From IMG/VR virus record IMGVR_UViG_2778261579_000007, positions 1-13,940 of that record: 13,940 nucleotides of DNA, one strand, 5' to 3'. Below the pieces are notes generated by a model. It saw only the letters and a program-made list of their open reading frames with translations, ran no database searches and was not told where the DNA came from. A program made the position numbers and the translations under genes. The DNA comes from a virus (taxonomy: Duplodnaviria; Heunggongvirae; Uroviricota; Caudoviricetes). Positions 518-13,940 of this stretch are shown in pieces; the first letter of the stretch is position 1; every line of letters begins with the position of its first letter.

Positions 518-583
518 ACTCATCTACAATCTTGCGCGGGGCTGAACTCCCGCTGAGTAACACCGTGCCACCGGAGAAAACCG

Positions 584-862
584 ATGGCACGCAACGTAAA
601 ATATTACAATTCTGATAATTCGCCCGTTCTTGCCTGCACGCACGGGCGGTATTCTCACGCATTCAAGTCTGAATGGTTCCAGCACCCTCCATGCACTGCA
701 GAACAGGCCGAATGGCTGATTCATTCTTACCGCAGGCGCGGGTTCGAGGTTAAGAAAGCTCTCAGTCTCGACTATCGGCACTGGATAATCTCTGTCAGGC
801 TGCCTTATTCCGAACGCCCACCACGTGCGTCCCGCACTTTCCAGCAACGGATCTGGAGGTAA
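584..862 (+). CDS. Hypothetical phage protein, 92 aa, translationally coupled to ydfU-like gene
   Basis: ATG 584 with GGAG 8 nt upstream; stop TAA 860-862 lies immediately before the GTG 864 start of the next gene. No family recognised. Confidence 0.45.
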   Translation: MARNVKYYNSDNSPVLACTHGRYSHAFKSEWFQHPPCTAEQAEWLIHSYRRRGFEVKKALSLDYRHWIISVRLPYSERPPRASRTFQQRIWR

Positions 863-863
863 C

Positions 864-1913
864 GTGCGGGTATTACTTAGACCTGTTCTGGTGCCTGAGC
901 TTGGGCTGGTGGTCCTTAAGCCGGGCCGTGAATCCATACAGATATTTCATAATCCTCGAGTGCTGGTGGAACCGGAACCAAAAAGCATGCGTAATCTGCC
1001 ATCCGGAGTCGTTCCTGCCGTTCGCCAGCCGCTGGCGGAAGACAAAACATTGCTACCGTTTTTTAGTAACGAACGGGTGATTCGTGCTGCTGGCGGCGTT
1101 GGCGCATTGTCTGACTGGCTATTACGTCATGTTACATCCTGCCAGTGGCCTAATGGCGATTACCATCACACTGAAACAGTCATTCACCGTTATGGTACCG
1201 GCGCAATGGTGTTGTGCTGGCACTGCGACAACCAACTGCGTGACCAGACATCGGAATCACTGGAGCTGCTTGCTCAACAAAATCTGACAGCATGGGTGAT
1301 TGACGTCATCCGTCACGCAATAAGCGGTACGCAGGAGCGGGAATTATCTTTGGCTGAATTATCCTGGTGGGCGGTCTGCAATCAGGTGGTGGATGCACTA
1401 CCTGAGGCTGTATCGCGTCGTTCGCTGGGATTACCAGCGGAAAAAATCTGCTCGGTGTACCGCGAAAGCGACATCGTACCGGGAGAGCAGACCGCCACCA
1501 GCATATTGAAACAACGCACAAAAAATCTTGCACCGTTGCCTTACGCCCACCAGCAACAAAACCCATCACAGGAAAAGACGGTGGTAAGCATCAACGTTGA
1601 TCCAGAGTCTCCGGAATCTTTCATGAAGCTGCCTAAACGTCGCCGCTGGGTTAAGGAGAAATACACTCGTTGGGTTAAGACACAGCCGTGTGCTTGCTGC
1701 GGTATGCCAGCCGACGATCCGCATCATCTGATTGGTCACGGGCAGGGCGGAATGGGAACAAAAGCACATGATCTCTTTGTGTTGCCTTTGTGCAGAAAGC
1801 ATCACAACGAGCTGCATACGGATACAGTGGCATTTGAAGAGAAGTATGGCTCCCAACTGGAGCTGATATTTCGTTTTATCGATCGCGCGCTGGCAATTGG
1901 CGTACTGGCGTAA
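864..1913 (+). CDS. ydfU: DUF968-type prophage protein with C-terminal HNH-like Cys/His motif, 349 aa
   Basis: GTG 864 preceded by GGAGG (855-859) gives 349 aa, the length I recall for K-12 YdfU. The ORF track extends to an upstream GTG at 825 without an RBS. C-terminus CACCG...HHLIGHGQGG...CRKHHNELH is HNH-like. Confidence 0.65.
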   Translation: MRVLLRPVLVPELGLVVLKPGRESIQIFHNPRVLVEPEPKSMRNLPSGVVPAVRQPLAEDKTLLPFFSNERVIRAAGGVGALSDWLLRHVTSCQWPNGDYHHTETVIHRYGTGAMVLCWHCDNQLRDQTSESLELLAQQNLTAWVIDVIRHAISGTQERELSLAELSWWAVCNQVVDALPEAVSRRSLGLPAEKICSVYRESDIVPGEQTATSILKQRTKNLAPLPYAHQQQNPSQEKTVVSINVDPESPESFMKLPKRRRWVKEKYTRWVKTQPCACCGMPADDPHHLIGHGQGGMGTKAHDLFVLPLCRKHHNELHTDTVAFEEKYGSQLELIFRFIDRALAIGVLA

Positions 1914-1926
1914 GTGGAGAACGAGC

Positions 1927-2679
1927 ATGAACCTTGAAGCCTTACCAAAATATTACTCCCCAAAATCTCCAAAATTGAGCGATGACGCTCCAGCGACAGG
2001 CACCGGTTGTTTAACAATTACGGATGTAATGGCAGCGCAGGGGATGGTGCAGTCGAAAGCACCACTTGGGTTGGCCTTATTTCTGGCAAAAGTTGGTGTT
2101 CAGGACGCTCAGTTTGCGATTGAAGGCCTGCTAAATTACGCGATGGCACTGGATAACCCGACATTGAACAAATTGAGTGAAGAAATCCGGTTACAGATTA
2201 TTCCTTACCTCGTGAATTTTGCCTTTGCTGATTACTCCAGGTCTGCGGCAAGTAAGGCTCGCTGTGAGCATTGTTCAGGTACGGGATTTTATAATGTATT
2301 GCGCGAAGTGGTGAAACACTACAGACGCGGGGAATCTGTAATCAAGGAAGAATGGGTGAAGGAACTATGTCAGCATTGCCATGGTAAGGGCGAAGTCAGC
2401 ACAGCGTGCAGAGGGTGTAAGGGTAAAGGGATTGTTCTGGATGAAAAAAGAACCCGGTTTCATGGCGTACCGGTATATAAGATTTGTGGGCGTTGTAATG
2501 GAAACCGGTTTAGTCGTTTACCGACCACGCTGGCACGACGTCATGTCCAGAAGCTGGTACCAGACCTGACCGATTATCAGTGGTATAAGGGGTATGCGGA
2601 CGTCATTGGTAAACTGGTAACAAAGTGCTGGCAGGAAGAAGCATACGCGGAAGCGCAATTGAGGAAGGTGACGAGATAA
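1927..2679 (+). CDS. quuQ: Late-gene antiterminator Q, 250 aa
   Basis: ATG 1927 with GGAGAA upstream gives 250 aa. Multiple CxxC zinc motifs (CEHCSGTG, CQHCHGKG, CRGCKGKG, CGRCNGN). Sits directly upstream of a promoter/terminator pair and the lysis cassette. Confidence 0.8.
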   Translation: MNLEALPKYYSPKSPKLSDDAPATGTGCLTITDVMAAQGMVQSKAPLGLALFLAKVGVQDAQFAIEGLLNYAMALDNPTLNKLSEEIRLQIIPYLVNFAFADYSRSAASKARCEHCSGTGFYNVLREVVKHYRRGESVIKEEWVKELCQHCHGKGEVSTACRGCKGKGIVLDEKRTRFHGVPVYKICGRCNGNRFSRLPTTLARRHVQKLVPDLTDYQWYKGYADVIGKLVTKCWQEEAYAEAQLRKVTR

Positions 2680-2710
2680 ATGATTTTTGCTGAAGATGGC
2701 GACATGATGT

Positions 2711-2739
2711 TTGCATTTTTCAAAAAATATGGATAAAAT
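2711..2739 (+). promoter_or_regulatory. Candidate late promoter pR' (-35 TTGCAT, 17-bp spacer, -10 TAAAAT)
   Basis: Hexamers at 2711-2716 and 2734-2739, immediately 3' of Q and about 50 nt 5' of an intrinsic terminator; this is the lambdoid pR'/qut/tR' layout. Sequence-only inference. Confidence 0.3.
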
Positions 2740-2784
2740 TTTTTCAATGATGGGCTTTGTATACCCGACGTTAAGAAAAAGTAG

Positions 2785-2808
2785 AAAACCCGCTGATGAG
2801 CGGGTTTT
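2785..2808. terminator. Bidirectional intrinsic terminator (candidate tR' and cspF terminator)
   Basis: AAAA-CCCGCT-GATG-AGCGGG-TTTT: perfect stem flanked by A-run and T-run, between quuQ (+) and convergent cspF (-). Confidence 0.55.
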
Positions 2809-3100
2809 GTGCTTTAAATGGGGCAATGGTAATGTTGAATCTCATCCCGGGACTCATGTCTGTTAACTTATTATTTAGCTGGTGACTTGGTTATTTGCCT
2901 GATGTTTAAAATGTTTTCTTCCAGTACAATGTCCCTAAACACAATGAGTCTGCTTATTATATTATTAGCAGAGCTATTACGGCCAAAGTACAGCATAAGC
3001 TTTTAAAGCCAATCAACCAGTCATCAAGACAGACGGGGTTATTCATAAAAACTCTCCATGTGTGATCCGATGGGGCCTGAAATTAAAGCTTTAATATAGC

Positions 3101-3313
3101 TCATGAAAGGTAAACATTGGCAGCTGAAGGGCCACGCAGACCATTTATCCGGCAAAATTCCACGCGTAATCCGGTGGTAATTTCTTCTGCATCGCGGAGA
3201 TTGAGCGCTGAAACATGAAGCTGGACATCGATACGACCATCGGATGGGGTGATAAGACCCTTGCCGCTTTTGCCGTCAAAGGTTTTGACAATTCCTGTCA
3301 TTTTACGGGACAA
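3101..3313 (-). CDS. cspF: Cold-shock protein CspF-like, 70 aa
   Basis: Translation [37 protein letters not shown]... is a CspA-family cold-shock domain; divergent from cspB as in Qin. Confidence 0.85.
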
Positions 3314-3613
3314 AAAAATTCCTTAATACTGATAACTTGGCGCACTATACACACGTTCCTGAAGAAAGCTATAGTTTTTTGATGGGGTTGAAGATGGCTG
3401 GATGTCTAAAATAAACATTGCTTCATATGTTCAACTATGCGTTAATGATTGCGTCGGTTTGAAGAACAGACGATATACGAAGTAGTTTACTAAAGCAGTT
3501 CTCATTTCAGGTGTTATTCACTTATTCCTTCTTTGAGTCTCTCCAATTAAGTACGAAGTCGTTTCTGTTATGCAAACCATTTATGCCGAAAGGCTCAAGT
3601 TAAGGAATGTAGA

Positions 3614-3829
3614 ATGTCAAATAAAATGACTGGTTTAGTAAAATGGTTTAACGCTGATAAAGGTTTCGGCTTTATTTCTCCTGTTGATGGTAGTAAAGAT
3701 GTGTTTGTGCATTTTTCTGCGATTCAGAATGATAATTATCGAACCTTATTTGAAGGTCAAAAGGTTACCTTCTCTATAGAGAGTGGTGCTAAAGGTCCTG
3801 CAGCAGCAAATGTCATCATTACTGATTAA
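3614..3829 (+). CDS. cspB: Cold-shock protein CspB-like, 71 aa
   Basis: [38 protein letters not shown]...: canonical CspA-family RNP motifs; about 300-nt upstream leader typical of cold-shock genes. Confidence 0.85.
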
Positions 3830-4110
3830 AATTCATCGCTCGTCTGTATACGATAACGAAGAAGGCTGATGCCTGAGTAGAGATACGGACAGAGTAGTGA
3901 ATATTGGATTTCTTTAATAAAATTTAAGGAGGTCCAATACATGAAACAATGGCCAGCATATTTGGCAAAATCTTAATCAGGAAAAGTATGCTAACCATTG
4001 TGGTGAAGTGCAGGTTTGCTGCATGAATAGTTTTACAGCAGAAGCTAACTGCTGGCATGGCAAAACAAAGTGCGTAAGTGGATGACTCCCACAAAAAGCA
4101 CCACAATCTC

Positions 4111-4134
4111 AAACCCGCTCAGGCGGGTTTTTTA
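4111..4134 (+). terminator. Rho-independent terminator
   Basis: AAA-CCCGC-TCAG-GCGGG-TTTTTT at 4111-4133; lies between cspB 3' region and the convergent minus-strand zinc-ribbon ORF. Confidence 0.55.
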
Positions 4135-4192
4135 TTATCTGCTTTAAATATATTATTAAAATATAAAAAATACTTGTTACTAATAAAATCAA

Positions 4193-4363
4193 TCAGGCTA
4201 CAGCTTTAAGATTTGTCTGGAATACTTTGTTGCAATGAGGGCAGATCAAAAGGGCACCTTTTTGTACTCTTGAAAAACTGTGTTCTGACTCTTGGGTGCA
4301 GTTTGGGCAGGAACATTTAACGAGATAATTACGGCGTGATTTTGAGTCTTTACGTTCTGACAT
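4193..4363 (-). CDS. Small zinc-ribbon protein, 56 aa (CxCxxC...CxxC)
   Basis: Minus-strand ATG at 4363 has AGGAAA 6 nt upstream; the ORF-track start at 4414 lacks an RBS. Motif CSCPNC-x18-CPHC. Possibly the Qin ynfU equivalent, but I cannot confirm this from memory. Confidence 0.45.
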   Translation of the reverse strand: MSERKDSKSRRNYLVKCSCPNCTQESEHSFSRVQKGALLICPHCNKVFQTNLKAVA

Positions 4364-4582
4364 AGGCTTTTCCTGTATAAATGGCCGTATACAGTACACT
4401 AAATATGAAAACATTTCTCGTATTATTATTTTATATATGACTTTCTTTCAAAATAATTACTCACATTTTTAATGTGTATGTTTCTTTAGCGCCGTTGAGA
4501 ACAGCGTGTGCTGTCAAAACTACCCCGTAGACTCCGATCTTTTCAAACATATTGCACCATCCGTGTACATCGGGGTGAGGAT

Positions 4583-4798
4583 ATGAAATCAATGGATAAG
4601 TTAACAACAGGTGTTGCCTATGGCACATCGGCGGGTAATGCTGGTTTCTGGGCATTGCAGTTACTCGATAAAGTAACTCCGTCACAGTGGGCTGCAATCG
4701 GTGTGCTGGGTAGCCTGGTTTTTGGCCTGCTGACGTATCTGACAAATCTTTATTTCAAGATTAAAGAAGACAGGCGTAAGGCTGCGAGAGGAGAGTAA
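4583..4798 (+). CDS. essQ: Class II holin/pinholin (S21-like), 71 aa, dual-start MKSM
   Basis: [71 protein letters not shown] resembles the phage 21 S21 pinholin. RBS GGGGTGAGG upstream. Met1/Met4 dual start typical of holin/antiholin. Confidence 0.8.
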
Positions 4799-4802
4799 TC
4801 CA

Positions 4803-5110
4803 ATGACTCAAGACTATGAACTGGTTGTGAAAGGAGTCCGTAATTTTGAGAATAAAGTTACGGTAACTGTAGCCTTACAGGACAAAGAACGCTTTGACGG
4901 TGAAATTTTTGGCCTGGATGTCGCCATGGACCGTGTTGAAGGAGCTGCGCTGGAGTTTTATGAGGCAGCAGCCAGAATGAGCGTCCGGCAAGTCTTCCTG
5001 GAAGTAGCAGAAAAATTGTCAGAAAAAGTTGAGTCTTATCTGCAGCATCAGTACTCCTTTAAGATTGAAAATCCTGCCAATAAGCACGAGCGTCCTCATC
5101 ATAAATATCT

Positions 5111-5114
<4 letters not shown>
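4803..5114 (+). CDS. ydfR: Hypothetical lysis-cassette protein, 103 aa
   Basis: ATG 4803 four nt after holin stop with GGAGAG upstream; stop overlaps endolysin start (ATGA at 5111-5114). Size and position match YdfR of Qin from memory. Confidence 0.55.
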
Positions 5115-6138
<1,024 letters not shown>

Positions 6139-6501
6139 ATTAATATTAAATCGGATTATTTTTAGCGCTGAATGTGAAATTTAAATAAAAAGGACTCTTC
6201 CATGAGTCAAAATCCTTGAAATCTTAAGGGTAAGATAAAAGGTCATTAGACAGAATGACACGTTTTATTAATAAATAAAGCTATTGTTTCATTCGTGTGT
6301 TTTTCTTTACAAAAGTAATCCTTGCTATGGTTGGTTAATCATGCGTTAATGGTGTTCTGGTTTGTTACAAAATTATCTGAAGCAGTCATTGTTATAATTT
6401 TATTATTTGTACCTCTTGAGATTTCCTTGTTGGTTTTTCTCTCTGATATTTTTTTTCGGACCATTCTGCCCAAGGGCTAACTTCTTCAAAAGGTAATAAT
6501 G

Positions 6502-6714
6502 ATGTCTAACAAAATGACTGGTTTAGTGAAATGGTTTAACCCTGAAAAAGGTTTTGGTTTCATCACGCCGAAAGATGGTAGCAAAGATGTGTTTGTGCAT
6601 TTCTCAGCTATTCAGAGCAACGATTTCAAAACGTTAACTGAGAATCAGGAAGTCGAATTTGGTATTGAGAACGGACCTAAAGGCCCTGCAGCTGTTCATG
6701 TAGTGGCACTTTGA
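6502..6714 (+). CDS. cspI: Cold-shock protein CspI-like, 70 aa
   Basis: [45 protein letters not shown]...; second ATG of the ORF chosen to give the canonical CspA-family N-terminus; about 360-nt AT-rich leader upstream. Confidence 0.85.
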
Positions 6715-6918
6715 GGTAGAAAATATTACAAACCATATTCACTTTAGATGCCCGTGTTGCCATGGTTCTCAGTATAGAACATCATCTTTTGATGTTTCTG
6801 ACAGAAATCCTTTCGGGGCAAAATGTATCTTTTGTAAATCAATGATGATTACATTTGATAATATTTCACAATACTTAAATGTTAGCCATCTGTCGTTAGA
6901 TTTAAGAAAGTGAAAATG

Positions 6919-6941
6919 AAGGCTCCTTCGGGAGCTTTTTT
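6919..6941 (+). terminator. Rho-independent terminator
   Basis: AAGGCTCC-TTCG-GGAGCTTT then T-run; 8-bp stem with TTCG loop. Confidence 0.55.
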
Positions 6942-6985
6942 GCTTAGTGTCTAGTCGATGGATACTCACATATTACGGTAACATT

Positions 6986-7216
6986 ATGAAAAAAATAATA
7001 GTTTTTTTTAACTCTGAACCAGCAATGGTAGTGCCAGTGATGACCGGAGTTAACACCATCATGCGTGAATATCCAAATGGCGAAACAACACACCTCACTG
7101 TAATGGCTGCAGGGTTTCCATCTCTGACCGGAGATCATAAAGTCATTTATGTAGCAGCGGATCGACATGTAACTTCAGAAGAAATTCTGGAAGCAGCAAT
7201 GAGACTCTTGAATTGA
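6986..7216 (+). CDS. Hypothetical small protein, 76 aa, upstream of gnsB-like gene
   Basis: ATG 6986 (MKKIIVFF...), weak RBS. The ORF-track GTG at 6947 overlaps the terminator and is less likely. Occupies the position of ynfN in Qin. Confidence 0.35.
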   Translation: MKKIIVFFNSEPAMVVPVMTGVNTIMREYPNGETTHLTVMAAGFPSLTGDHKVIYVAADRHVTSEEILEAAMRLLN

Positions 7217-7388
7217 TTTGATTCTAATGCATTGATAATAAATGATAATCATCTTTATCTGTTTGTGTGAAATTTAGACCGTCGTATGTTGATTATTGCG
7301 ATGTTTCATCTTATCTTTTATACGTTTGCTCCATATAATTGACACTACTGTGTACCAGGACAGTCATAACAGACTAAAAGAGGAAATG

Positions 7389-7562
7389 ATGAACATTGAA
7401 GAGTTAAAAACAAAAACAGAAGCAGATATTTCTGAATATATAACAAAAAAAATCATTGAGCTTAAGAAAAAGACCGGGAAAGAAGTTACCAGTATCCAGT
7501 TTACTGCACGGGAAAAAATGACTGGTCTTGAAAGCTATGATATCAAGATTGATTTAATCTAG
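7389..7562 (+). CDS. gnsB: GnsA/GnsB-family protein, 57 aa
   Basis: MNIEELKTKTEADISEYITKKIIELKKKTGKEVTSIQFTAREKMTGLESYDIKIDLI; AAGAGG RBS at 7377-7382. Strong resemblance to the GnsA/GnsB family from memory. Perfect TATAAT at 7334-7339 upstream. Confidence 0.7.
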   Translation: MNIEELKTKTEADISEYITKKIIELKKKTGKEVTSIQFTAREKMTGLESYDIKIDLI

Positions 7563-7857
7563 CATGTTTATAGTATTAGCATCAATTTCTCATCAGATGC
7601 TATTCAACAATACAAATTACCCATAAACCTCGTTTTTACGGGGTTTTGTTATATTTAAACATTACCGAATAGATATAAATCTCGATTGTCGATGGTATTG
7701 GTTGTGTGACAATACCTAGTCTTTCCGGTATGCCTGAAGAGAATACAAACGACAGATTATGTAAGGGAAACGCGCTGAAACTTTCACTCTTTCATGCTGA
7801 GTGATTTGACGTTATATTTTTAGCCGCAAGTGAAGAGCAAACGAATGGAGCGACAAA

Positions 7858-8064
7858 ATGCATAAAGATCAATACACTGATGCCCCCTCCCAGGAGCAGG
7901 TTCGTGTAAAAACTATGCTTAATAGCACCATTTCGATGGGTTACCCGGATGTTGTAATTGCATGTATAGAACATCAAGTATCTCTGGAAGCATTCAGGGC
8001 AATTGAGGCCGCGTTAGTAAAGCACGATAAGAATACGAAGGATTATTCCCTGGTGGTTGACTGA
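7858..8064 (+). CDS. Hypothetical protein, 68 aa
   Basis: ATG 7858 with GGAG about 8 nt upstream; occupies the ydfO position of Qin but is shorter. No motif recognised. Confidence 0.35.
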
Positions 8065-8400
8065 TCACCATAACTGCTAACCATTCTGACCATTTCACAA
8101 GTGACAGAGTCAATATCGTATTCTGTCACTGTAAGGCTAATACAGTACTGCAATTCAACTACAGCAATGCCTCGTATTTAGGTGAATTTACAATATCGTC
8201 CAGTTCGGATGCCGGCTGCATTTCTGAAGATAAGGCATTTCGGTTCGCGTATTTTCCCCTCATGCTCGTCAGTCCTGCGCGTAGTAAGAAACAGGACACT
8301 CACACTAATTTGTGTGGGCATGCTGTGATGTCCTTCTGAATTATCCCCATGCCATTATGTAACGCTCTGTTTCAGATGCTCGTCACGGTTGTCAGGCTGT

Positions 8401-8485
8401 CGGGTCCTCCCAGTGGGGGTCCCTGCCACGGGGCGGGAGCGTCGCGGAAAAAGGCTAGTTTTTGAAATTTCATCCGTCATCACCA
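8401..8485. repeat. cos-like site copy 1 (cosQ-like GGGTCCTCCC, putative cosN 8431-8442 GGGCGGGAGCGT, start of cosB)
   Basis: Aligns to lambda cos junction recalled from memory (...ACGGGTCCTTTCCGGTGATCCGACAGGTTACG | GGGCGGCGACCT CGCGGG...). Nu1-like ATG lies 186 nt downstream of the putative cosN start; lambda has 190. Confidence 0.6.
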
Positions 8486-8616
8486 CTACTGTAATAGATT
8501 GATATTACAGTATTTTTATTTTTGCGGTGTCGATTTTGATTGTTTTTTGTTCATCACTAACACCGTTTGCCTAAAGTCGTTCGCAAGATGCATGTTTAAA
8601 ACATTCTGGAGCGGGT

Positions 8617-9111
8617 ATGGATCGAGAGTTAAAAAATCTGACGCTGAATATCAGTCAACTGGCGGCACTGTCAGGTGTACATCGCCAGACTGCTGCGGCA
8701 AGGCTGCAAAATCTACCCGTTGCAGGGGGGCATGAAAGCAACCTCAAGCTTTATCGGGTGGTTGATATTGTGTCGGCATTTCTGGCATTACCACCGCCGG
8801 TTGCAGAAGGCGAAATGGACGCGCATGAGCGCAAAGCCTGGTATCAGTCTGAACGTGAGCGTCTTAAGTTCGAACAGGAAACGGCGCAACTCATTCCGGC
8901 CAGTGATGTCAGACGGGAGTTTGCCATCTGGGCAAAAGCGGTCGTGCAGGTGCTGGAGACATTACCGGATATTCTGGAACGTGACTGCGGTCTGCAGCCT
9001 GCCGCTGTGAGCCGTGTTCAGTCCATTATTGATGATCTGCGCGATCAGATAGCCCTGCGGGTGACTGAAGCAGGTGCGGATGATGAGGAGGAATTACAGC
9101 AGGAGGAGTAA
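8617..9111 (+). CDS. Terminase small subunit, Nu1-like (copy A), 164 aa
   Basis: N-terminal HTH-like segment (LNISQLAALSGVHRQTAAARL) and overall pattern resemble lambda Nu1; GGAG RBS; positioned at the correct distance from cos; stop overlaps next ORF start (TAATG). Confidence 0.7.
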   Translation: MDRELKNLTLNISQLAALSGVHRQTAAARLQNLPVAGGHESNLKLYRVVDIVSAFLALPPPVAEGEMDAHERKAWYQSERERLKFEQETAQLIPASDVRREFAIWAKAVVQVLETLPDILERDCGLQPAAVSRVQSIIDDLRDQIALRVTEAGADDEEELQQEE

Positions 9112-9308
9112 TGCTGAATCAGGAAACCGCAAAGGCAGCACGAACCGATTCAGGTTATATCCTTCGCGCACCGAGACGAATGCGGGTTGCTGATGCCGTT
9201 GCTCAGTATATGCGGGTGCCCATGGGGGCAGGGAACTCAGTCCCGTGGGATCCGCTGGTGGCACCGTATGTTATTGAGCCTATGAACTGCCTGGCCTCGC
9301 GTGAATAG
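9111..9308 (+). CDS. Short ORF coupled to terS copy A, 65 aa (possible terminase-large-subunit remnant)
   Basis: ATG overlaps terS stop in the normal terS-terL coupling arrangement, but the ORF is only 65 codons; weak resemblance of PWDPLVAPYVIEPMN to the lambda gpA N-terminal region. Confidence 0.3.
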   Translation: MLNQETAKAARTDSGYILRAPRRMRVADAVAQYMRVPMGAGNSVPWDPLVAPYVIEPMNCLASRE

Positions 9309-9343
9309 ACAACCATCAACATTAAGTCCGGAGAGCAGACAGC

Positions 9344-9766
9344 ATGACAGCACAGATAGCAGCTTACGGGCGGCTGGCAAATGACCCGCAGTTAAAGACC
9401 ACCAGCAAGGGTACACAAATGGCAATGGCGAGTATGGCGGTCCCGCTGCCATGCAGCCAGGCAGATGACGGAACGGCGACGATGTGGTTATCCGTCTTGG
9501 CATTTGGCAGGCAGGCCGAAGCGCTGGCAAAGCACCGCAAGGGGGAACTCCTGAGCGTGGCTGGTAACATGCAGGTGAACCAGTGGACAGGCCAGAACGG
9601 CGAAATACGGCAGGGCTGGCAGGTTATCGCAGACAGTGTAATCAGTGCCAGAACGGCGCGACCAGGTGGTAAAAAAGGCCAACTGGGGCAGGCCACTGAC
9701 GCACTGAACAGGGCAAAACAACAGGCGGGAAATGATGATCCGTACGGGGATGAAATACCGTTTTAA
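9344..9766 (+). CDS. Single-stranded DNA-binding protein (SSB)-like, 140 aa, with C-terminal DEIPF tail
   Basis: OB-fold pattern alignable by eye to E. coli SSB (IAAYGRLANDPQLK.. vs ILVGNLGQDPEVRY..; WLSVLAFGRQAEALAKHRKGELLSVAGNMQVNQWTGQNG vs [40 protein letters not shown]) and acidic tail ending IPF. GGAGAG RBS. Confidence 0.7.
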   Translation: MTAQIAAYGRLANDPQLKTTSKGTQMAMASMAVPLPCSQADDGTATMWLSVLAFGRQAEALAKHRKGELLSVAGNMQVNQWTGQNGEIRQGWQVIADSVISARTARPGGKKGQLGQATDALNRAKQQAGNDDPYGDEIPF

Positions 9767-9781
9767 GCAACGAGTAACAGA

Positions 9782-9805
9782 AGCCGGAGCAATCCGGCTT
9801 TTTTA
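9782..9805 (+). terminator. Rho-independent terminator immediately 5' of cos copy 2
   Basis: AGCCGGA-GCAA-TCCGGCT followed by TTTTT. Confidence 0.6.
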
Positions 9806-9880
9806 TGGGTCCTCCCGGTGTAGTGACCTGCCACGGGGCGGGAGCGTCGCGGAAAAAGGCTGGTTTTTGCATTTTCATGG
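9806..9880. repeat. cos-like site copy 2 (cosQ-cosN, putative cosN 9836-9847 GGGCGGGAGCGT), orphan: no cosB/terS follows
   Basis: Near-identical to copies 1 and 3 over about 70 bp, then diverges into AT-rich sequence unrelated to the cosB/terS leader of the other copies. Confidence 0.6.
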
Positions 9881-10064
9881 CGGCGGCAGCATGTGTGATA
9901 ATTTATTGATAATTAAAAATTATTTCTGTTTTCACCTGTACAATATTTTTTTCTCCCTGTCATTAGACCAGTTTGCAATTAATTGAAATATATAAATAAA
10001 TTGGTTTTTCACCTGCCAGATGGAGTTGCCTGTGCAAAACGTGTTCAGATGGCGGGATATTTAT

Positions 10065-10087
10065 GCCGGATTCTCTCCGGCTTTTTT
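10065..10087 (+). terminator. Rho-independent terminator
   Basis: GCCGGA-TTCTC-TCCGGC followed by TTTTTT; same stem sequence as the 9782 terminator. Confidence 0.5.
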
Positions 10088-10189
10088 GTGTCTGAATCTG
10101 ATTAATCTATTTTTATGATAGAAATATGTTTATCTACCACTTTTATCGATCAATAATGCGCGCAGTTTAGTCAGTAAGAGGAAGTTACT

Positions 10190-10399
10190 GTGAATTGTAT
10201 TAACGACCTGAACACAGGCGAGGTAAAAGGTGGTTCCGTTCATCTGGATGCGCAGACCGTTATGCGCCTTAAGCAGTACAGGATCGACCACATAAATCAT
10301 CATCCTGACCAACCATTACCAGGTGCGGCGCAGATTGTCAGACACGCAGTTAACGCGTGGCTTGATAAGAATGGTTTTGCATCTGGGGGTGAGCAATGA
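10190..10399 (+). CDS. Hypothetical small protein, 69 aa, coupled to protease/capsid gene
   Basis: GTG 10190 with strong AAGAGGAAG RBS; in-frame stop 5 codons upstream so it is not a fragment of a longer frame; stop overlaps downstream ATG (ATGA). Confidence 0.45.
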   Translation: MNCINDLNTGEVKGGSVHLDAQTVMRLKQYRIDHINHHPDQPLPGAAQIVRHAVNAWLDKNGFASGGEQ

Positions 10400-12309
10400 A
10401 TCACTGGTACACCATTAAGGCGCTGGGTGTTCGCGGAGCGGCAGAAATATCCATCTATGAAGAAATTGGCGGCTTCGGTATTACCGCGAAGAAGTTTGCG
10501 GAAGACCTGAAAGCCCTGGGCGATGTCTCACATATCGACCTGCGGATCCATTCGCCAGGTGGTGACGTGTTTGAAGGCATCGCCATCTATAACCTGTTAC
10601 GGAATCATCCGGCAGAAATTACGGTTTATATCGATGGTGTTGCGGCTTCAATGGCTTCGGTTGTCGCAATGGCTGGCGATCGTGTTGTGATGCCGGAAAA
10701 CGCCATGATGATGATACATAAGCCGTGGGGTATCTCTGGCGGAAATGCTGGTGATATGCGTGATTATGCTGATTTGCTGGATAAGGTGGAAACCGTGTTA
10801 GTCCCTGCTTATGCCAGAAAAACGGGCAAATCAGCACAGGAAATTACCGCCATGCTGGAAGATGAAACCTGGATGGACGGGAAAGAATGCCTTAAGCACG
10901 GTTTTGCTGATGAATTGTTGCCATCTGTCACAGCAATGGCGCGAATTGAATCGAAACGCACAGGAGATTTTTCACACATGCCGGAAACCATTAAAGGAAT
11001 GATTATCCCGCCACAGGGAGCAGCCAATATTGCTGGTAATGAACAGAAGCGCATCAACGGAATAAGTGAAGTGTTTAGCCTGTTCGGCAGTCGTTACGAC
11101 GGGATCAAAATGGCGTGCCTGGAGGATGCATCATGTACACCGGAGATGGCCCGTGAAAAGTTGTTGAACGAGCTGGGGCGCGAGTCCACGCCATCCAATA
11201 AAAATATCCCGACTCATATTTATGCCGGTAACGGGAACATAACAGGCGATGCAATTCGTCAGGGGCTTTATTCTCGTCTCGGGTATGAACGCCCAGAGCG
11301 GGGAAATCCTTATGCGATGATGAGCCTTTTTGAAATGGCCCAGGCATCACTAACTGATCGTGGTATCAGTGTTGGCAGTTTTTTAAATCGCTCGCAGGTC
11401 GTTAATGCAGCTTTCACACACAGCAGCAGCGATTTTTCTCATATTCTGGCTGGTGGTGCTGAAAAGTCAGTGCTGAAAGGCTGGCAGGACAGCGGCGAAA
11501 CGTTCCAGAAATGGACGCGTACCGGATCGCTTTCAAACTTTCATGAAGCAAAGCGCGTTGGTCTGAATGGTTTTTCAAAGCTGGATAAAGTACCGGAAGG
11601 TGCGGAATATAAATACATCACCACCAGCGATAAAGGTGTACCTATTGCGCTGGCCACATACGGTAATATTTTTTCTGTTACCCGTCAGGCCATTATCAAC
11701 GATGACCTGACCCAGTTAACTACAATCCCCATGGCGATGGGGCGTGCGGCCGCCAGAACAGTAGGTAATCTGGTTTATCTTCTGTTAACCAGCAACGGCA
11801 AATTTACGGATGGTAAAGCGTTATTCCATGCCGATCATAAAAATCTTATTGCGAAGGATATGGACATGGAGGGGCTTAACGAAGCCCGTAAGCTGATGCG
11901 ATTACAGGAGGATGCCAACGGCGACTCCCTGAATATTACCCCCGCTTTTGTTCTGGTCCCTGCTGCGCTGGAGTCTGCCGCACATCGCGCCATTCTGTCA
12001 TCGTCATCACTCTTTCCGATTGATGGTGGAGGCACTATCAATCAGAACCCCGGCATCATTAACGCGGTGAAAGATATGGCAGAGGTTATCGTCGAGCCGC
12101 GTCTTGATAAAGCCAATAACAAGGAGTGGTATGTGGCAGCGGCGAAGGGGATGGACACGATAGAGGTCGCTTATCTTGATGGTATTGATACGCCATATCT
12201 TGAGGAGCAGGAGGGATTTACTGTTGATGGCGTCGCCTGGAAGGTGCGCATAGATGCAGGTGTCGCGGCCCTCGACTATCGCGGATTACTGAAATCGAGT
12301 GGAGCATGA
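10396..12309 (+). CDS. Prohead protease (ClpP/S14-like) fused to HK97-fold major capsid protein, 637 aa
   Basis: N-terminal ClpP-like motifs (HSPGGDV, GVAASMASVVAMAGD with candidate catalytic Ser, MMIHKPW with candidate His); C-terminal about 350 aa resemble capsid proteins of Gifsy-type lambdoid phages as I recall them. Confidence 0.75.
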   Translation: MNHWYTIKALGVRGAAEISIYEEIGGFGITAKKFAEDLKALGDVSHIDLRIHSPGGDVFEGIAIYNLLRNHPAEITVYIDGVAASMASVVAMAGDRVVMPENAMMMIHKPWGISGGNAGDMRDYADLLDKVETVLVPAYARKTGKSAQEITAMLEDETWMDGKECLKHGFADELLPSVTAMARIESKRTGDFSHMPETIKGMIIPPQGAANIAGNEQKRINGISEVFSLFGSRYDGIKMACLEDASCTPEMAREKLLNELGRESTPSNKNIPTHIYAGNGNITGDAIRQGLYSRLGYERPERGNPYAMMSLFEMAQASLTDRGISVGSFLNRSQVVNAAFTHSSSDFSHILAGGAEKSVLKGWQDSGETFQKWTRTGSLSNFHEAKRVGLNGFSKLDKVPEGAEYKYITTSDKGVPIALATYGNIFSVTRQAIINDDLTQLTTIPMAMGRAAARTVGNLVYLLLTSNGKFTDGKALFHADHKNLIAKDMDMEGLNEARKLMRLQEDANGDSLNITPAFVLVPAALESAAHRAILSSSSLFPIDGGGTINQNPGIINAVKDMAEVIVEPRLDKANNKEWYVAAAKGMDTIEVAYLDGIDTPYLEEQEGFTVDGVAWKVRIDAGVAALDYRGLLKSSGA

Positions 12310-12315
12310 CAACAA

Positions 12316-12339
12316 GGGCGGCGATAGCCGCCTTTTTTT
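12316..12339 (+). terminator. Rho-independent terminator immediately 5' of cos copy 3
   Basis: GGGCGGC-GATA-GCCGCC followed by TTTTTTT. Confidence 0.6.
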
Positions 12340-12340
12340 A

Positions 12341-12427
12341 CGGGTCCTCCCGGTGTAGTGACCTGCCACGGGGCGGGAGCGGCGCGGAAAAAGGCTAGTT
12401 TTTGCATTTTTATTCGTCATCATCATC
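12341..12427. repeat. cos-like site copy 3 (cosQ-cosN-cosB, putative cosN 12371-12382 GGGCGGGAGCGG)
   Basis: Same element as copies 1 and 2; Nu1-like ATG 196 nt downstream of putative cosN; leader 12534-12566 nearly identical to 8584-8616. Confidence 0.6.
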
Positions 12428-12566
12428 TTTCTATTATATTGAATTTTAAGTGTTTTTATTTTTGGTATGTTAATTTTGCTTATTTTGTGTTCAACATGCA
12501 GCGCGTTTTTTGACCTTTTTTAAAAGATATTTGCAAGATGCATTTTTAAAACATTCTGGAGCGGGT

Positions 12567-13052
12567 ATGGATCGGGAACTGAAAAATCTGATGCTGAACA
12601 TTAACCAGCTGGCGGCGATAGCGGGAATATGTCGCCAGACTGCGGCGGCAAGGCTGAAAAATATCCAGCCAGCCGGAGGACATGACAAGCTGAAACTCTA
12701 TCGGGTGACTGACATTCTGACCTGTTTTCTTGATCTTCCCGTTCCGGCATCACTGGAAGAAATGGAGCCACACGACCGTAAGGCCTGGTATCAGTCCGAA
12801 CGTGAGCGCCTCAAGTTCGAACAGGAAACGGCGCAACTCATACCCGCCGATGATGTGCGAAAAGAGATGGCTATATGGGGAGAAATCGTAAGCGAGGAAC
12901 TGGAAAAACTCCCCAGTATTCTGGCACGTGATGTTGGGCTTAAACCGATGGCAGTAAACAGAGTGCAGTCAATTATTGACGATTTGTGTAATCAGATTAT
13001 CAGCCGGATGGTAAAAAATGACGTAGTGAATGAGGTCGCAAAACAGGCATGA
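12567..13052 (+). CDS. Terminase small subunit, Nu1-like (copy C), 161 aa
   Basis: Start MDRELKNL is homologous to the copy A start and has the same GGAGCGGGT-ATG RBS context; the ORF track extends to ATG 12510, but that region is not coding in copy A. About 65-70% aa identity to copy A by eye. Confidence 0.7.
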   Translation: MDRELKNLMLNINQLAAIAGICRQTAAARLKNIQPAGGHDKLKLYRVTDILTCFLDLPVPASLEEMEPHDRKAWYQSERERLKFEQETAQLIPADDVRKEMAIWGEIVSEELEKLPSILARDVGLKPMAVNRVQSIIDDLCNQIISRMVKNDVVNEVAKQA

Positions 13053-13336
13053 TAATGACCGAATCTGAAATACTGCGATTAATCCGCTGTGCTGGTGGAA
13101 TTAGCCAGTTGGCTGACGAACAGGCCGCGCAGCCGGATACAGTCACCGCTGAAAATTACGCGCGTGTGGTGGCTGAGGTGATGCGCCGTGACGGTATTGA
13201 GCTTAACGGCGTGGATATGCGCAACATACGAACCAGAGTCCTTGAGTTGCTGGCATACCGTCGCCGTTCTCAACAACGGAGGGAGAGCGCGAAAAATACT
13301 TATCAGTGGAAGAAGCCGGAATGGTTGCGGCGGTAA
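13049..13336 (+). CDS. Probable truncated terminase large subunit (N-terminal 95 codons only)
   Basis: ATGA overlap with terS stop; N-terminus TESEILRLIRCAGGISQL resembles lambda gpA N-terminus (SQVNRLRHFVRAGLRSL) from memory; the ORF stops after 95 codons and downstream frames are full of stops. Confidence 0.4.
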   Translation: MIMTESEILRLIRCAGGISQLADEQAAQPDTVTAENYARVVAEVMRRDGIELNGVDMRNIRTRVLELLAYRRRSQQRRESAKNTYQWKKPEWLRR

Positions 13337-13710
13337 TTTGTTGATATTCCTGATAGCGCAAAAGTGCGTTGGCTGGTGGGTGAGTTGCAGATCTGCAACT
13401 CGACCATGAAATTACGGAAACTACCCGTAGTTTGGGTAGTAAGAGTAACACCCAGATTTTGGGGCTTACTTGCGATACCCAAATAAAGGGTATCGGTGGA
13501 AGAAATATCGTTTCTCATATGTGAGTTCCGAGAGCGGAATTCCGCCTCTGATTTGTCATTGTGATCATGCATAGCGGCAATAATTAATATTGCTTCCTTT
13601 TTTGCTTTTTTATCGCTTAAGCAGGTACTAAATCTGGGACTATGTTGTAGGGGGCATAACTCAATAGTACCTTATAATCATTTAGTTACCTTTTATTTAC
13701 TTCTTCCTGG

Positions 13711-13940
13711 ATGGAGGGTCCGGCAGCTGCTTATCAGACACTCTCGCAACTCGTTTACAAACTGCTTACTGCAGAACAGGAATACGAGACAACCGGAAGT
13801 GAAGAGACACTCAAGACGGTTATCAATACCGACTGGGGATTACCTTATCTTCCCCGCGCCAGCATGGAGCAACGAAAAAGTGAATTGCTTGAGCAGCGGG
13901 CAGAGCCAGTTCCTTCCCGCAGTGTGCCGGATGGCGTTAA
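13711..13940 (+). CDS. Hypothetical protein, 5' part only (ORF runs off window end)
   Basis: ATG 13711 opens a frame with no stop to the end of the window (76 codons); TATAAT at 13673-13678 upstream; no clear RBS. Function unknown. Confidence 0.3.
   Translation, partial: MEGPAAAYQTLSQLVYKLLTAEQEYETTGSEETLKTVINTDWGLPYLPRASMEQRKSELLEQRAEPVPSRSVPDGV

What the first reader, a model, noticed from the sequence alone, without database searches (positions are those of the whole stretch)
8401..12427. Three direct copies of a lambda-like cos site within about 4 kb
An 70-85 bp element recurs at 8401-8485, 9806-9880 and 12341-12427 in the same orientation. Each copy aligns to the lambda cosQ-cosN junction as I recall it: GGGTCC..CCGGTG....ACG, then a 12-nt GC-rich block, then CGCGG. 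Copies 1 and 3 continue into a cosB-like leader and a Nu1-like terS gene at the lambda-like distance of about 190 nt. A single prophage normally carries one cos. Three in tandem partition the packaging region into 1.4-kb and 2.5-kb cassettes, far below any headful or cos-to-cos packaging size. Possible explanations are repeated cos-proximal recombination between related phages, insertion of cos-bearing satellite-like modules, or decoy cos sites that interfere with a superinfecting phage terminase. The sequence alone cannot distinguish these.
Basis: partly seen in the sequence, partly recalled or inferred. Interest (0 to 1): 0.85.

Follow-up and report, generated by a model that had tools for sequence, protein, structure and literature searches.

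The report
Satellite remnant inside prophage terminase gene
The three lambda-like cos sites are real: one is a prophage's own DNA-packaging site, and the other two belong to a small phage satellite (a PICI) that inserted into the prophage's large-terminase gene and later lost most of itself, which is a known kind of element in a partly new form.

Summary
Three direct copies of an ~80-nt unit carry lambda's cosQ heptamer, an ACG|12-nt|CGCGG cosN core and a leader. Two phage records (cdtI, Tritos) begin exactly at the 12-mer.

Copy 1 is the cos of a Qin-like lambdoid prophage. It is followed by its DUF1441 small terminase and a 65-aa stub of its gpA-type large terminase. Copies 2 and 3 belong to a phage-inducible chromosomal island (PICI) of the EcCICFT073 backbone family and flank its protease/capsid fusion gene. 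Intact relatives carry the same pair 2,535 bp apart, at cspD-clpS or inside prophage terL.

The PICI is embedded in terL at a 7-bp core, so excision would restore terL. This junction occurs in 79 of 5,426 complete E. coli genomes. In this window a 6.8-kb blunt deletion removed attL, int and primase, which brought the three cos within 4 kb.

The two PICI cos sites have unrelated leaders. One is cdtI-phage type (92%). The other is paired with the PICI's own TerS homologue.

Two cos sites in E. coli PICIs and helper-embedded PICIs are both published. New here are the terL site, an unrelated integrase and the direct cos pair with unlike leaders. Interest is moderate.

The parts
825..8393 (+). Late region of a Qin-like lambdoid prophage: DUF968/ydfU, Q antiterminator, two csp genes with cspA-type leaders, DUF1327, lysozyme, DUF2514 spanin
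   Evidence: Pfam; Rfam; 95-99% identical to the IMT16316 prophage over 1-1913 and 4557-9310
8394..8473 (+). cos copy 1, the prophage's own cos: cosQ GGGTCCT 8402-8408; 12-mer GGGCGGGAGCGT 8431-8442
   Evidence: It lies between the lysis genes and terS, as in lambda. The same site is at L003 18583 in IMT16316
8443..8616 (+). Leader of copy 1: cosB-like, mEp460 type
   Evidence: 75-78% identical to the leaders of the PICI copy-3 type and ~60% (background) to copy 2. 77 of 120 IMG/VR contigs with this cosN core have this leader type
8617..9111 (+). Prophage small terminase (DUF1441, 164 aa)
   Evidence: Pfam DUF1441 E=2.7e-41; PHROG 141 'terminase small subunit' E=7e-74; the DNA over window 8592-9310 is 99% identical to phage mEp460, annotated there as terS/terL
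9111..9308 (+). 65-aa N-terminal stub of gpA-type large terminase, ended by a TAG created at the deletion junction
   Evidence: PHROG 15 'terminase large subunit'; collinear with L003 19266-19463
9307..9308 (.). Blunt deletion junction joining terL nt ~197 to the 3' end of a PICI hypothetical gene. About 6.8 kb present in IMT16316 is missing: rest of terL-N, attL, int', IS1, BRO, Icd-like, DUF4222, primase
   Evidence: Base-by-base comparison with L003 shows no microhomology and no repeat at the junction
9308..13706 (+). 3' third of a PICI satellite (end of the replication zone plus the 'late zone'), 100% identical to the PICI in E. coli IMT16316
   Evidence: Window 9308-13940 equals L003 26250-30882 at 100% over 4633 nt. 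It is 96.4% identical to the intact island at cspD-clpS in ECL27977 (annotations)
9344..9766 (+). PICI single-stranded DNA-binding protein
   Evidence: Pfam SSB E=3.5e-15. It is in the same position as ssb of EcCICFT073
9779..9805 (+). Intrinsic-terminator-like hairpin plus T-run directly upstream of copy 2
   Evidence: RNA fold -15.4 kcal/mol, z=-4.6, 0 of 200 shuffles as good
9799..9878 (+). cos copy 2, the PICI cos after ssb: cosQ 9807-9813; 12-mer GGGCGGGAGCGT 9836-9847
   Evidence: The same site is present in L001 (12526), L003 (26775), L095 (8228) and L156 (7636)
9848..10038 (+). Leader of copy 2: cosB-like, cdtI/Tritos/HannyBb phage type. It contains two direct repeats ending in TTTTCACCTG (9900-9938 and 9977-10015)
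   Evidence: Window 9836-10038 is 92% identical to nt 1-204 of phage cdtI, and homology stops where cdtI terS begins. It is 92-96% identical to the cdtI and O121-prophage leaders and ~60% to copies 1 and 3. Repeat D9
10190..10399 (+). 69-aa ORF overlapping the capsid gene start by 4 nt (function unknown)
   Evidence: PHROG 4934 E=5e-30. The protein pattern is conserved in the diverged O121 PICI (read directly)
10396..12309 (+). PICI ClpP-like prohead protease / major capsid protein fusion (637 aa), a diverged paralogue of the prophage's own
   Evidence: Pfam CLP_protease plus Phage_capsid_4. 56% identical to the IMT16316 prophage protease/capsid
12314..12341 (+). Intrinsic-terminator-like hairpin plus T-run directly upstream of copy 3
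   Evidence: RNA fold -16.2 kcal/mol, z=-5.6, 0 of 200 shuffles as good
12334..12413 (+). cos copy 3, the PICI cos after the capsid gene: cosQ 12342-12348; 12-mer GGGCGGGAGCGG 12371-12382
   Evidence: This position is the conserved one: PICI-type capsid genes in Trabulsiella, Kluyvera, Buttiauxella, Phytobacter and Moellerella have their single cos here
12383..12566 (+). Leader of copy 3: cosB-like, PICI-specific derivative of the mEp460 type
   Evidence: 75% identical to copy 1 and 89% to L001 copy B. Only 71-73% identical to any phage record
12567..13052 (+). PICI-encoded small-terminase homologue (DUF1441, 161 aa)
   Evidence: Pfam DUF1441 E=2.2e-35; PHROG 141. 68% identical to the prophage TerS and 31% to the cdtI TerS
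13049..13336 (+). Conserved 95-aa PICI gene of unknown function, also the last gene of EcCICFT073
   Evidence: PHROG 1561 E=1e-51. 79% nucleotide identity to L008 33373-33667
13337..13713 (+). PICI right arm and attR; the core CTGGATG is at 13707-13713
   Evidence: attL/attR comparison in L003, L009 and L010 against intact cdtI terL
13702..13940 (+). C-terminal part of the prophage gpA-type terL, from the SFWMEGPAA motif onward; it runs off the window
   Evidence: Translation; 89% identical to cdtI terL nt 1713-1949; RefSeq 'terminase gpA endonuclease subunit'; Pfam GpA_nuclease begins at residue 325

Best explanation
The three-cos array is a composite of two mobile elements. Copy 1 is the cos of a Qin-like lambdoid prophage whose packaging module resembles phage mEp460 (DUF1441 TerS plus lambda gpA-type TerL). 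Copies 2 and 3 are the two packaging sites of a ~10-kb PICI satellite of the EcCICFT073 backbone family. That PICI integrated, co-oriented, into the prophage's terL at a 7-bp core in the codons for SFWM, at the start of the nuclease domain. This is a 'helper-embedded' PICI, and excision of an intact copy would rebuild terL. In this window a later blunt 6.8-kb deletion removed the rest of terL-N, attL, integrase, regulators and primase. That brought the three cos sites within 4 kb and left both elements immobile.

Inferred mechanism for the intact satellite: all copies share a cosQ-cosN that a gpA-type helper TerL can nick. Copy 3 has a PICI-specific leader followed by the PICI's own TerS homologue, which would direct helper TerL to satellite DNA. 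Copy 2 carries an almost unaltered cdtI-type phage leader, which a helper of that second TerS lineage could use directly. The pair would therefore give the satellite two packaging specificities. The array in this window is most likely a recent fossil with no function of its own.
For: Shown:
- The repeat and its lambda-type anatomy are real.
- The records of phages cdtI and Tritos start at the first base of the 12-mer.
- An intact island (int, HTH, YlcI, Icd-like, DUF4222, primase, ssb, cos, capsid, cos, DUF1441, hyp) lies at cspD-clpS, with two cos cores in the same places. A reference PICI, EcCIIHE3034, is listed at that chromosomal site.
- The backbone is collinear with EcCICFT073 and 77-94% identical to it in patches.
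- The same PICI lies inside terL in IMT16316, 100% identical to window 9308-13940. It also lies inside terL in O121, O145 and IMG/VR contig L095.
- The right junction is present in 79 of 5,426 complete E. coli genomes.
- The att core is defined, and joining the terL flanks reproduces intact cdtI terL.
- The deletion junction is blunt and not in a repeat.
- Copy 2's leader is 92-96% identical to cdtI-type phages. Copy 3's is 75-78% identical to the mEp460 type. Copy 2 against copy 3 is ~60%, the background level.
- Both phage leader types occur with the same cosN core in 77 and 32 of 120 viral contigs.
- mEp460-type and cdtI-type TerS differ mainly in the N-terminal half (21% identity) and less in the C-terminal half (53%).
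- A second, diverged PICI variant (O121/O145) again has two different cos sites at the same two positions. One of them matches the cos of the Stx1a prophage that hosts it.

From the literature:
- EcCICFT073 has two functional cos sites with different cosB, one served by a PICI protein (PMC6092414, PMC6739421).
- Helper-embedded PICIs excise after composite replication (PMC10111431).
Against: - Nothing here is experimental. Cleavage at this cosN variant has not been shown in any source I could read, and phage records may start at the 12-mer by analogy with lambda.
- The window itself lacks int, alpA and primase, so calling it a PICI rests on relatives.
- The second cos may be functionless. In EcCICFT073 one of the two sites is dispensable and its deletion increases transfer.
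- PICI-type capsid loci in five other genera have only the site downstream of the capsid gene.
- In O121 neither PICI cos matches the cos of the prophage it sits in.
- DUF1441 could not be tied to Nu1 by sequence or structure.
Confidence: 0.85

Rival explanations
1. The satellite's second cos (the copy-2 position) is a functionless passenger. It came in when the PICI captured a cos-to-capsid block from a cdtI-type phage and later lost terS, terL and portal. Only the site downstream of the capsid gene is used.
For: Copy 2's leader is 92-96% phage-like right up to where terS should start, and homology then stops. Relatives in five other genera have one cos only, downstream of the capsid gene. 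In EcCICFT073 one cos is dispensable. Capture of late-gene clusters by PICIs is documented (PMC10111431).
Against: Two diverged E. coli PICI variants both keep a cos at this position, each of a different cosN/cosB class. The cosQ-cosN halves of copies 2 and 3 are 95% alike and PICI-specific, while the leaders are unrelated. That is what recircularisation after cos-to-cos packaging between the two sites would produce. cosQ, cosN and the leader of copy 2 are all intact.
Confidence: 0.3
2. The extra cos sites act as decoys or interference devices. The immobile remnant (cos sites plus TerS homologue plus capsid paralogue) is kept because it misdirects the terminase or capsid assembly of superinfecting lambdoid phages.
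For: PICIs are known to block helper packaging through TerS-binding proteins (PMC6739421). The TerS homologue and the 637-aa capsid ORF are intact in the remnant.
Against: The remnant is 100% identical to IMT16316 over 4.6 kb. The deletion is therefore recent, and intact ORFs say nothing about selection. This deletion was not found in any of 5,426 complete genomes. No defence-family evidence was sought or found.
Confidence: 0.07
3. The tandem cos sites arose by repeated cos-proximal recombination between related phages, with no satellite involved.
For: The cos units and DUF1441 genes of copies 1 and 3 are homologous.
Against: The intervening DNA is PICI backbone. It ends at an att core inside terL, and in relatives it carries an integrase, primase and regulators. 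The same pair occurs at a chromosomal PICI site with no prophage around it.
Confidence: 0.03
4. The triplication or the close spacing is an assembly artefact.
For: Repeats can mislead assemblers, and this exact deletion is absent from the complete-genome collection.
Against: The three-cos array exists in independent complete genomes and in an IMG/VR contig. The deletion junction lies in unique sequence, away from any repeat.
Confidence: 0.03

Closest known systems
EcCICFT073, the prototype Gram-negative cos PICI (Fillol-Salom et al. 2018, PMC6092414; 2019, PMC6739421)
   Same: The backbone and gene order are the same: int, HTH, YlcI/YnfO, Icd-like, DUF4222, primase, hyp, ssb, small ORF, capsid homologue, then a final ~95-aa gene, with 77-94% nucleotide identity in patches. 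Both carry two lambda-type cos sites with conserved cosQ/cosN but different cosB. In both, one cos lies next to a PICI gene that sets packaging specificity.
   Different: In EcCICFT073 the two cos cores are inverted (L008 32556 + and 33312 -) and flank a 435-bp gene. Here they are direct repeats flanking the capsid gene. EcCICFT073 has lambda E/D-type capsid and decoration genes and, per the paper, Rpp and no TerS homologue. This PICI has a ClpP-protease/capsid fusion and a DUF1441 TerS homologue. Its cohesive-end sequence is GGGCGGGAGCG(T/G), not lambda's GGGCGGCGACCT.
Helper-embedded PICIs (HE-PICI; Tommasini, Mageeney & Williams 2023, PMC10111431), prototype 11capE
   Same: [quoted passage not shown] A short att identity block lies inside the ORF, so excision restores the gene. 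The four-zone PICI organisation is the same.
   Different: The target is the start of the nuclease domain of a gpA-type terL. The paper's gene-A sites are in Terminase_1-type TerL. 'GpA' and this element's att flanks are absent from the supplements I could read. The integrase is only ~25% identical to the 11capE integrase, so it lies outside the integrase clade that defines that study. 11capE has a single cos-like site.
Bacteriophage lambda cos (cosQ-cosN-cosB) and gpNu1/gpA terminase
   Same: The cosQ heptamer GGGTCCT lies ~30 nt upstream of the nick. The core is ACG | 12 nt | CGCGG. terS starts ~190 nt downstream and is followed by a gpA-type terL.
   Different: The 12-mer differs from lambda's at 4-5 positions. 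The leader (cosB) is unrelated to lambda's (36-44%, at or below background). TerS is DUF1441 and not Phage_Nu1.
Capsid-forming PICIs (cf-PICIs)
   Same: The satellite encodes its own major capsid protein and a small terminase homologue.
   Different: There is no terL, portal or head-tail connector genes, and the late zone is only ~3.5 kb. It cannot build a capsid or package on its own.
cos-type SaPIs (SaPIbov5; SaPIbov4 is reported to have two putative cos sites)
   Same: The satellite carries helper-type cos and a capsid-protein homologue. Two cos sites in one satellite are noted in the literature.
   Different: These are Gram-positive elements with no sequence relationship to this one. The mechanisms there concern HNH/cos phages.

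Membership tests
Lambda-type cos site | cosQ heptamer ~30 nt upstream of the nick site | tested here: met
   GGGTCCT is exact in all three copies, 29 nt upstream (30 nt in lambda). The identity and role of cosQ are from my own knowledge of lambda.
Lambda-type cos site | cosN: GC-rich 12-nt staggered-nick core in the context ACG|N12|CGCGG | tested here: met
   ACG|GGGCGGGAGCG(T/G)|CGCGG, matching lambda's 12-mer at 8/12 or 7/12 positions. The core occurs 3 times with 0 expected by chance.
Lambda-type cos site | The site coincides with the physical ends of virion DNA | tested here: inconclusive
   The cdtI and Tritos records begin at base 1 of the 12-mer. I could not confirm that these ends were mapped experimentally. 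The mEp460_4F5 record starts 5 nt earlier.
Lambda-type cos site | cosB leader followed by terS and a gpA-type terL | tested here: met
   Copy 1 has a leader, DUF1441 TerS and a gpA-type terL stub. Copy 3 has a leader and a TerS homologue but no terL. Copy 2 has a phage-type leader only.
Lambda-type cos site | Nicking by terminase and packaging in vivo | not testable with these tools
   This needs terminus mapping or cos-plasmid transduction.
Gram-negative PICI (EcCICFT073-like) | int, alpA-like regulator and primase/replication module, unidirectional, ~10-20 kb | tested here: not met
   These are absent from the window because of the 6.8-kb deletion. They are present in the relatives that share the late zone at 96-100% identity (L001, L003) or as a diverged variant (L009, L010). 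The window holds a remnant, not a complete member.
Gram-negative PICI (EcCICFT073-like) | Backbone homology and synteny with reference PICIs | tested here: met
   Collinear with EcCICFT073 and 77-94% nucleotide identity in patches. The intact relative sits at cspD-clpS, the site of reference PICI EcCIIHE3034.
Gram-negative PICI (EcCICFT073-like) | Carries helper-type cos and/or a terS homologue for packaging by a helper | tested here: met
   Two cos sites plus a DUF1441 TerS homologue.
Gram-negative PICI (EcCICFT073-like) | Helper-induced excision, replication and high-frequency transfer | not testable with these tools
   Experimental.
Helper-embedded PICI (Tommasini et al. 2023) | [quoted passage not shown] | tested here: met
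   terL-N | PICI | terL-C in L003, L009, L010 and L095. The core is (C)TGGATG, and the joined flanks equal intact cdtI terL. In the window only attR survives.
Helper-embedded PICI (Tommasini et al. 2023) | Integrase belongs to the 11capE integrase clade; site is one of the 14 catalogued | tested here: not met
   24.7% identity to the 11capE integrase. The att flanks and 'GpA' are absent from the paper's supplements as held; one file was truncated.
Rpp-type packaging redirection | A PICI protein homologous to RppA/B/C | tested here: not met
   phmmer of the PICI DUF1441 protein against all PDB chains, where I expect the Rpp and Nu1 structures to be deposited, gave nothing better than E=0.046, and that hit is unrelated.
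Capsid-forming PICI | Complete capsid/packaging set (terL, portal, capsid, connectors) | tested here: not met
   Only a protease/capsid fusion and a TerS homologue are present in any relative.
Phage_Nu1 small terminase family | Sequence or profile similarity to lambda gpNu1 | tested here: inconclusive
   There is no Pfam Phage_Nu1 hit. hhalign probability is 15%, although the only aligned stretch pairs DUF1441 residues 9-54 with Nu1 residues 2-50, which I recall as its winged-helix region. The AlphaFold model was too poor to use.

The most novel reading that the evidence does not exclude
The direct cos pair works as a two-specificity packaging signal. One site copies the cosB of one helper lineage (cdtI type). 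The other is served by the satellite's own TerS homologue (a derivative of the mEp460 type). One 10-kb satellite can then exploit two TerS lineages that share a gpA-type TerL and cosN. Separately, a second, unrelated integrase lineage has evolved helper embedding, splitting terL at the ATPase/nuclease boundary. No helper terminase can then be made until the satellite excises. This includes an Stx1a prophage in O145:H28, so the satellite would control the timing and yield of a Shiga-toxin phage.
Probability: 0.35. Interest if true: 0.65.

Novelty: new variant of a known kind. Interest (0 to 1): 0.45.

Why it matters
The result turns an apparent anomaly (three cos sites in 4 kb) into a readable signature. 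Extra cos copies downstream of a prophage cos mark an embedded or decayed PICI.

Three points go beyond what I found in print:
- The integration site is in gpA-type terL and is present in about 1.5% of complete E. coli genomes, including O121, O145 and O111 STEC.
- The integrase is unrelated to the published helper-embedded PICI clade, which suggests the embedded lifestyle arose more than once.
- The two cos sites are direct repeats flanking the capsid gene, with leaders taken from two different phage lineages.

This gives a concrete, testable answer to why E. coli PICIs carry two cos sites, a question the prototype studies left open. If the embedded satellite controls terL of an Stx1a phage, it could affect toxin-phage spread. 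For genome annotation, such composites are easily miscalled as one defective prophage.

Tried and rejected
- PDB sequence search with the PICI DUF1441 protein gave no meaningful hit, so no link to Nu1 or Rpp structures.
- AlphaFold2 prediction of the DUF1441 protein from a two-sequence alignment gave mean pLDDT 55, with the N-terminal domain below 50. I did not run a fold search on it because matches would be meaningless.
- Profile comparison of DUF1441 with lambda Nu1 was inconclusive, at 15% probability.
- A full-text search for the 12-mer GGGCGGGAGCGT found only an unrelated mammalian paper. Searches for cdtI/mEp460 cos mapping found only inferences by analogy.
- The first two CFT073 stretches I fetched were a lambda-like prophage and chromosome, not the PICI. 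The third was correct.
- The terminator scan missed the two + strand hairpins upstream of copies 2 and 3. I verified them by folding instead.
- The first cos-core pattern missed the O121/O145 PICI sites, which have 10-11-nt cores. I found them by reading the intergenic DNA.
- Rejected: cf-PICI (no terL or portal), a plain phage-phage recombinant, and an assembly artefact (see rival explanations).
- Not attempted: genome-wide co-occurrence of this PICI with cdtI-type versus mEp460-type prophages. The tools do not allow per-genome filtering.

Full report
OBSERVATION. The repeat is real. The repeat finder gives one three-copy direct family at 8394-8473, 9799-9878 and 12334-12413, at 80% and 95% identity to the middle copy. 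The 22-nt core CCACGGGGCGGGAGCGTCGCGG occurs three times, with none expected in 200 shuffles. I fetched the true ends of lambda and aligned them. Every copy has the heptamer GGGTCCT, which I recall as lambda's cosQ, 29 nt upstream of the nick position (30 nt in lambda). Every copy then has ACG | 12-nt GC-rich block | CGCGG. The 12-mer is GGGCGGGAGCGT in copies 1 and 2 and GGGCGGGAGCGG in copy 3. The records of phages cdtI and Tritos begin at the first base of that 12-mer. Related lambdoid phages with fused protease/coat genes and lambda-type TerL are inferred in the literature to make 12-nt 5' overhangs of very similar sequence (PMC12315714). I could not find experimental end-mapping for this exact variant.

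ANATOMY OF THE WINDOW. Positions 1-8400 are the late region of a Qin-like lambdoid prophage: DUF968, Q antiterminator, csp genes, DUF1327, lysozyme and spanin. Copy 1 lies where lambda's cos lies. It is followed 186 nt later by a DUF1441 gene (PHROG 141 'terminase small subunit'); the DNA over window 8592-9310 is 99% identical to phage mEp460. A 65-aa N-terminal stub of a gpA-type large terminase comes next. At 9307|9308 the sequence jumps into a different element. That element contains ssb, a terminator hairpin, copy 2, a 69-aa ORF, a 637-aa ClpP-protease/major-capsid fusion, a terminator hairpin and copy 3. It continues with a second DUF1441 gene (196 nt from the 12-mer), a 95-aa gene, a ~370-nt arm, and then the C-terminal part of terL from the motif SFWMEGPAA onward.

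WHAT THE SECOND ELEMENT IS. In E. coli ECL27977 the same late genes (96% identical) end a ~10-kb island between cspD and clpS. Its order is integrase, HTH regulator, YlcI/YnfO, Icd-like, DUF4222, primase, hyp, ssb, capsid fusion, DUF1441, hyp. It has two cos cores in exactly the positions of copies 2 and 3. That backbone is collinear with EcCICFT073, the prototype Gram-negative PICI, which I located in CFT073. A reference PICI (EcCIIHE3034) is catalogued at the cspD-clpS site. In E. coli IMT16316 the PICI lies inside the terL gene of a Qin-like prophage. Window 9308-13940 is 100% identical to it, and window 4557-9310 is 99% identical to the flanking prophage. The window differs by a blunt deletion of ~6.8 kb with no microhomology. 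The deletion removed the rest of terL-N, attL, the IS1-disrupted integrase, BRO, Icd-like, DUF4222, primase and most of a small gene. In IMT16316 copy 1 and copy 2 are 8.2 kb apart. The 2,535-bp spacing of copies 2 and 3 is constant in every relative. IMG/VR contig L095 shows the same three-cos array with a full-length PICI.

INTEGRATION INTO terL. I compared attL and attR in three genomes with the intact terL of phage cdtI. The shared core is (C)TGGATG, and the two terL flanks join to give the uninterrupted gene. The site is at residues ~327-330, the first residues of Pfam GpA_nuclease. The right junction (PICI arm plus terL-C) is present in 79 of 5,426 complete E. coli genomes at 88-100% identity, including O121:H19, O145:H28 and O111:H21. 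In O121 RM8352 and O145:H28 12E115 the embedded PICI has a full-length integrase. In 12E115 the host prophage carries stx1a. This is the 'helper-embedded PICI' configuration described by Tommasini, Mageeney and Williams (PMC10111431). Their gene-A sites, however, are in Terminase_1-type TerL. Neither 'GpA' nor these att flanks occur in their supplements as held. The integrase here is only 22-25% identical to those of 11capE, EcCICFT073 and the cspD-clpS island.

THE TWO SATELLITE cos SITES. Two functional cos sites are already published for EcCICFT073. They have conserved cosQ/cosN and different cosB, one of which is recognised by the PICI protein Rpp bound to helper TerS. The other is dispensable (PMC6092414, PMC6739421). 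In CFT073 the two cores are inverted and flank a small gene. Here they are direct and flank the capsid gene. Their left halves (cosQ to cosN) are 95% alike and PICI-specific, but their leaders are unrelated, at ~60% identity, which is background for this AT-rich DNA. Copy 2's leader is 92-96% identical to cdtI-type phages and to the O121 prophage, up to the point where terS would start. Copy 3's leader is 75-78% identical to the mEp460-type leader of copy 1 and only 71-73% to any phage record. Among 120 viral contigs sharing this cosN core, 77 have the mEp460-type leader, 32 the cdtI type and 10 the PICI type. The corresponding TerS proteins differ mainly in the N-terminal half (21% identity) and less in the C-terminal half (53%). 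The PICI TerS is 68% identical to the mEp460 type and 31% to the cdtI type. A second, diverged PICI variant (O121/O145, without a TerS gene) again has two different cos sites at the same two positions. One closely matches the cos of the Stx1a prophage that hosts it. The other has a degenerate cosQ. PICI-type capsid genes in five other genera have only the site downstream of the capsid gene. That site is therefore ancestral, and the site after ssb is an addition in E. coli lineages.

MECHANISM (inferred). Helper gpA-type TerL nicks the shared cosN. The PICI's TerS homologue, bound to the copy-3 leader, would recruit it to satellite concatemers, in analogy with SaPI TerS and Rpp. The copy-2 leader could be bound directly by the TerS of a cdtI-type helper. 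As reported for EcCICFT073, concatemers would be packaged until the head is nearly full. The role of the PICI capsid paralogue (56% identical to the prophage's) is unknown. The near-identity of the left halves of the two sites is what recircularisation would produce after packaging that starts at one site and ends at the other. I take that as weak support for both sites being used. The main rival is that copy 2 is a passenger from late-gene capture. In this window the array is most likely a recent fossil: attL, int and primase are gone, terL cannot be rebuilt, and the remnant is still 100% identical to a relative.

VERDICT. Both underlying phenomena are published. The new points are the gpA-terL site, an integrase outside the published clade, the direct pair of cos sites with unlike leaders, a PICI-encoded DUF1441 TerS, and embedding in an Stx1a prophage. 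I rate it a new variant of a known kind, of moderate interest.

Noticed in passing
L010 4267-17493 with L212 3009-4235 (E. coli O145:H28 12E115, NZ_AP024921.1): The PICI is embedded in the terL of a prophage that carries stxA1a/stxB1a. The PICI's cos downstream of its capsid gene closely matches that Stx1a prophage's own cos. A paper on O145:H28 Stx phages that includes this strain does not mention a satellite.
   Followed up: partly
L009 6341-7579; L211 7504-8739; L008 22931-24160; L001 6288-7526: The integrase of the terL-embedded PICIs is only 22-25% identical to the integrases of 11capE (the published HE-PICI clade), EcCICFT073 and the cspD-clpS island. The last two are 77% identical to each other. 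The same late zone therefore rides on backbones with unrelated integrases.
   Followed up: partly
window 10190-10399 (+) versus 10130-10312 (-): A 69-aa + strand ORF overlaps the capsid gene start by 4 nt, hits PHROG 4934, and is conserved at protein level in the diverged O121 PICI. RefSeq annotates an opposite-strand 'hypothetical protein' at this place in relatives (L001 12823-12996), which is probably a miscall.
   Followed up: partly
L009 12944-13000 and L010 12945-13001: In the O121/O145 PICI variant the cos after ssb has a degenerate cosQ (AGGTACT in place of GGGTCCT) and an 11-nt core (GGGCGGAGGGG). The cos after the capsid gene has a 10-nt core (GGGCGGGCGG). The first might start packaging but not terminate it.
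   Followed up: partly
window 12382 versus 8442 and 9847: Position 12 of the cohesive-end sequence is G in copy 3 and T in copies 1 and 2. The same difference is kept in the intact island L001. Among IMG/VR contigs the G variant is found in 9 of 10 PICI-type sites and also in 11 of 77 mEp460-type phage sites. A molecule packaged from one PICI site to the other would have one mismatched base in its annealed ends.
   Followed up: partly
window 9900-9938 and 9977-10015: Two 39-nt direct repeats (74% identical) lie within the cdtI-type leader of copy 2, both ending in TTTTCACCTG. They are candidate TerS-binding elements of this cosB type (family D9).
   Followed up: no
window 3453-3845 and 6344-6760: Two cspA-type thermoregulator leaders (Rfam RF01766, 159 and 110 bits), each with a 71-aa cold-shock gene, lie in the prophage late region on either side of the lysis cassette. 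They are also a 73%-identical direct repeat (D1).
   Followed up: no
L003 20462-21571 (E. coli IMT16316): In the closest relative the PICI integrase is truncated to its arm-binding domain by an IS1 insertion. That 'full-length' embedded PICI is therefore probably immobile too, and its terL is permanently split.
   Followed up: no
window 1914-4556: This stretch (Q antiterminator, first csp gene, YnfU on the minus strand) does not align to the otherwise 95-99% identical IMT16316 prophage. IMT16316 has RusA, a different antiterminator and two tRNA genes there. The prophage is mosaic at this point.
   Followed up: no
L011, L013, L014, L049, L068 (Trabulsiella, Buttiauxella, Phytobacter, Kluyvera, Moellerella): PICI-type protease/capsid genes (71-79% identical) in other genera each have one lambda-type cos 60-90 nt downstream of the capsid gene, each with its own 12-mer variant. 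None has a copy upstream.
   Followed up: partly
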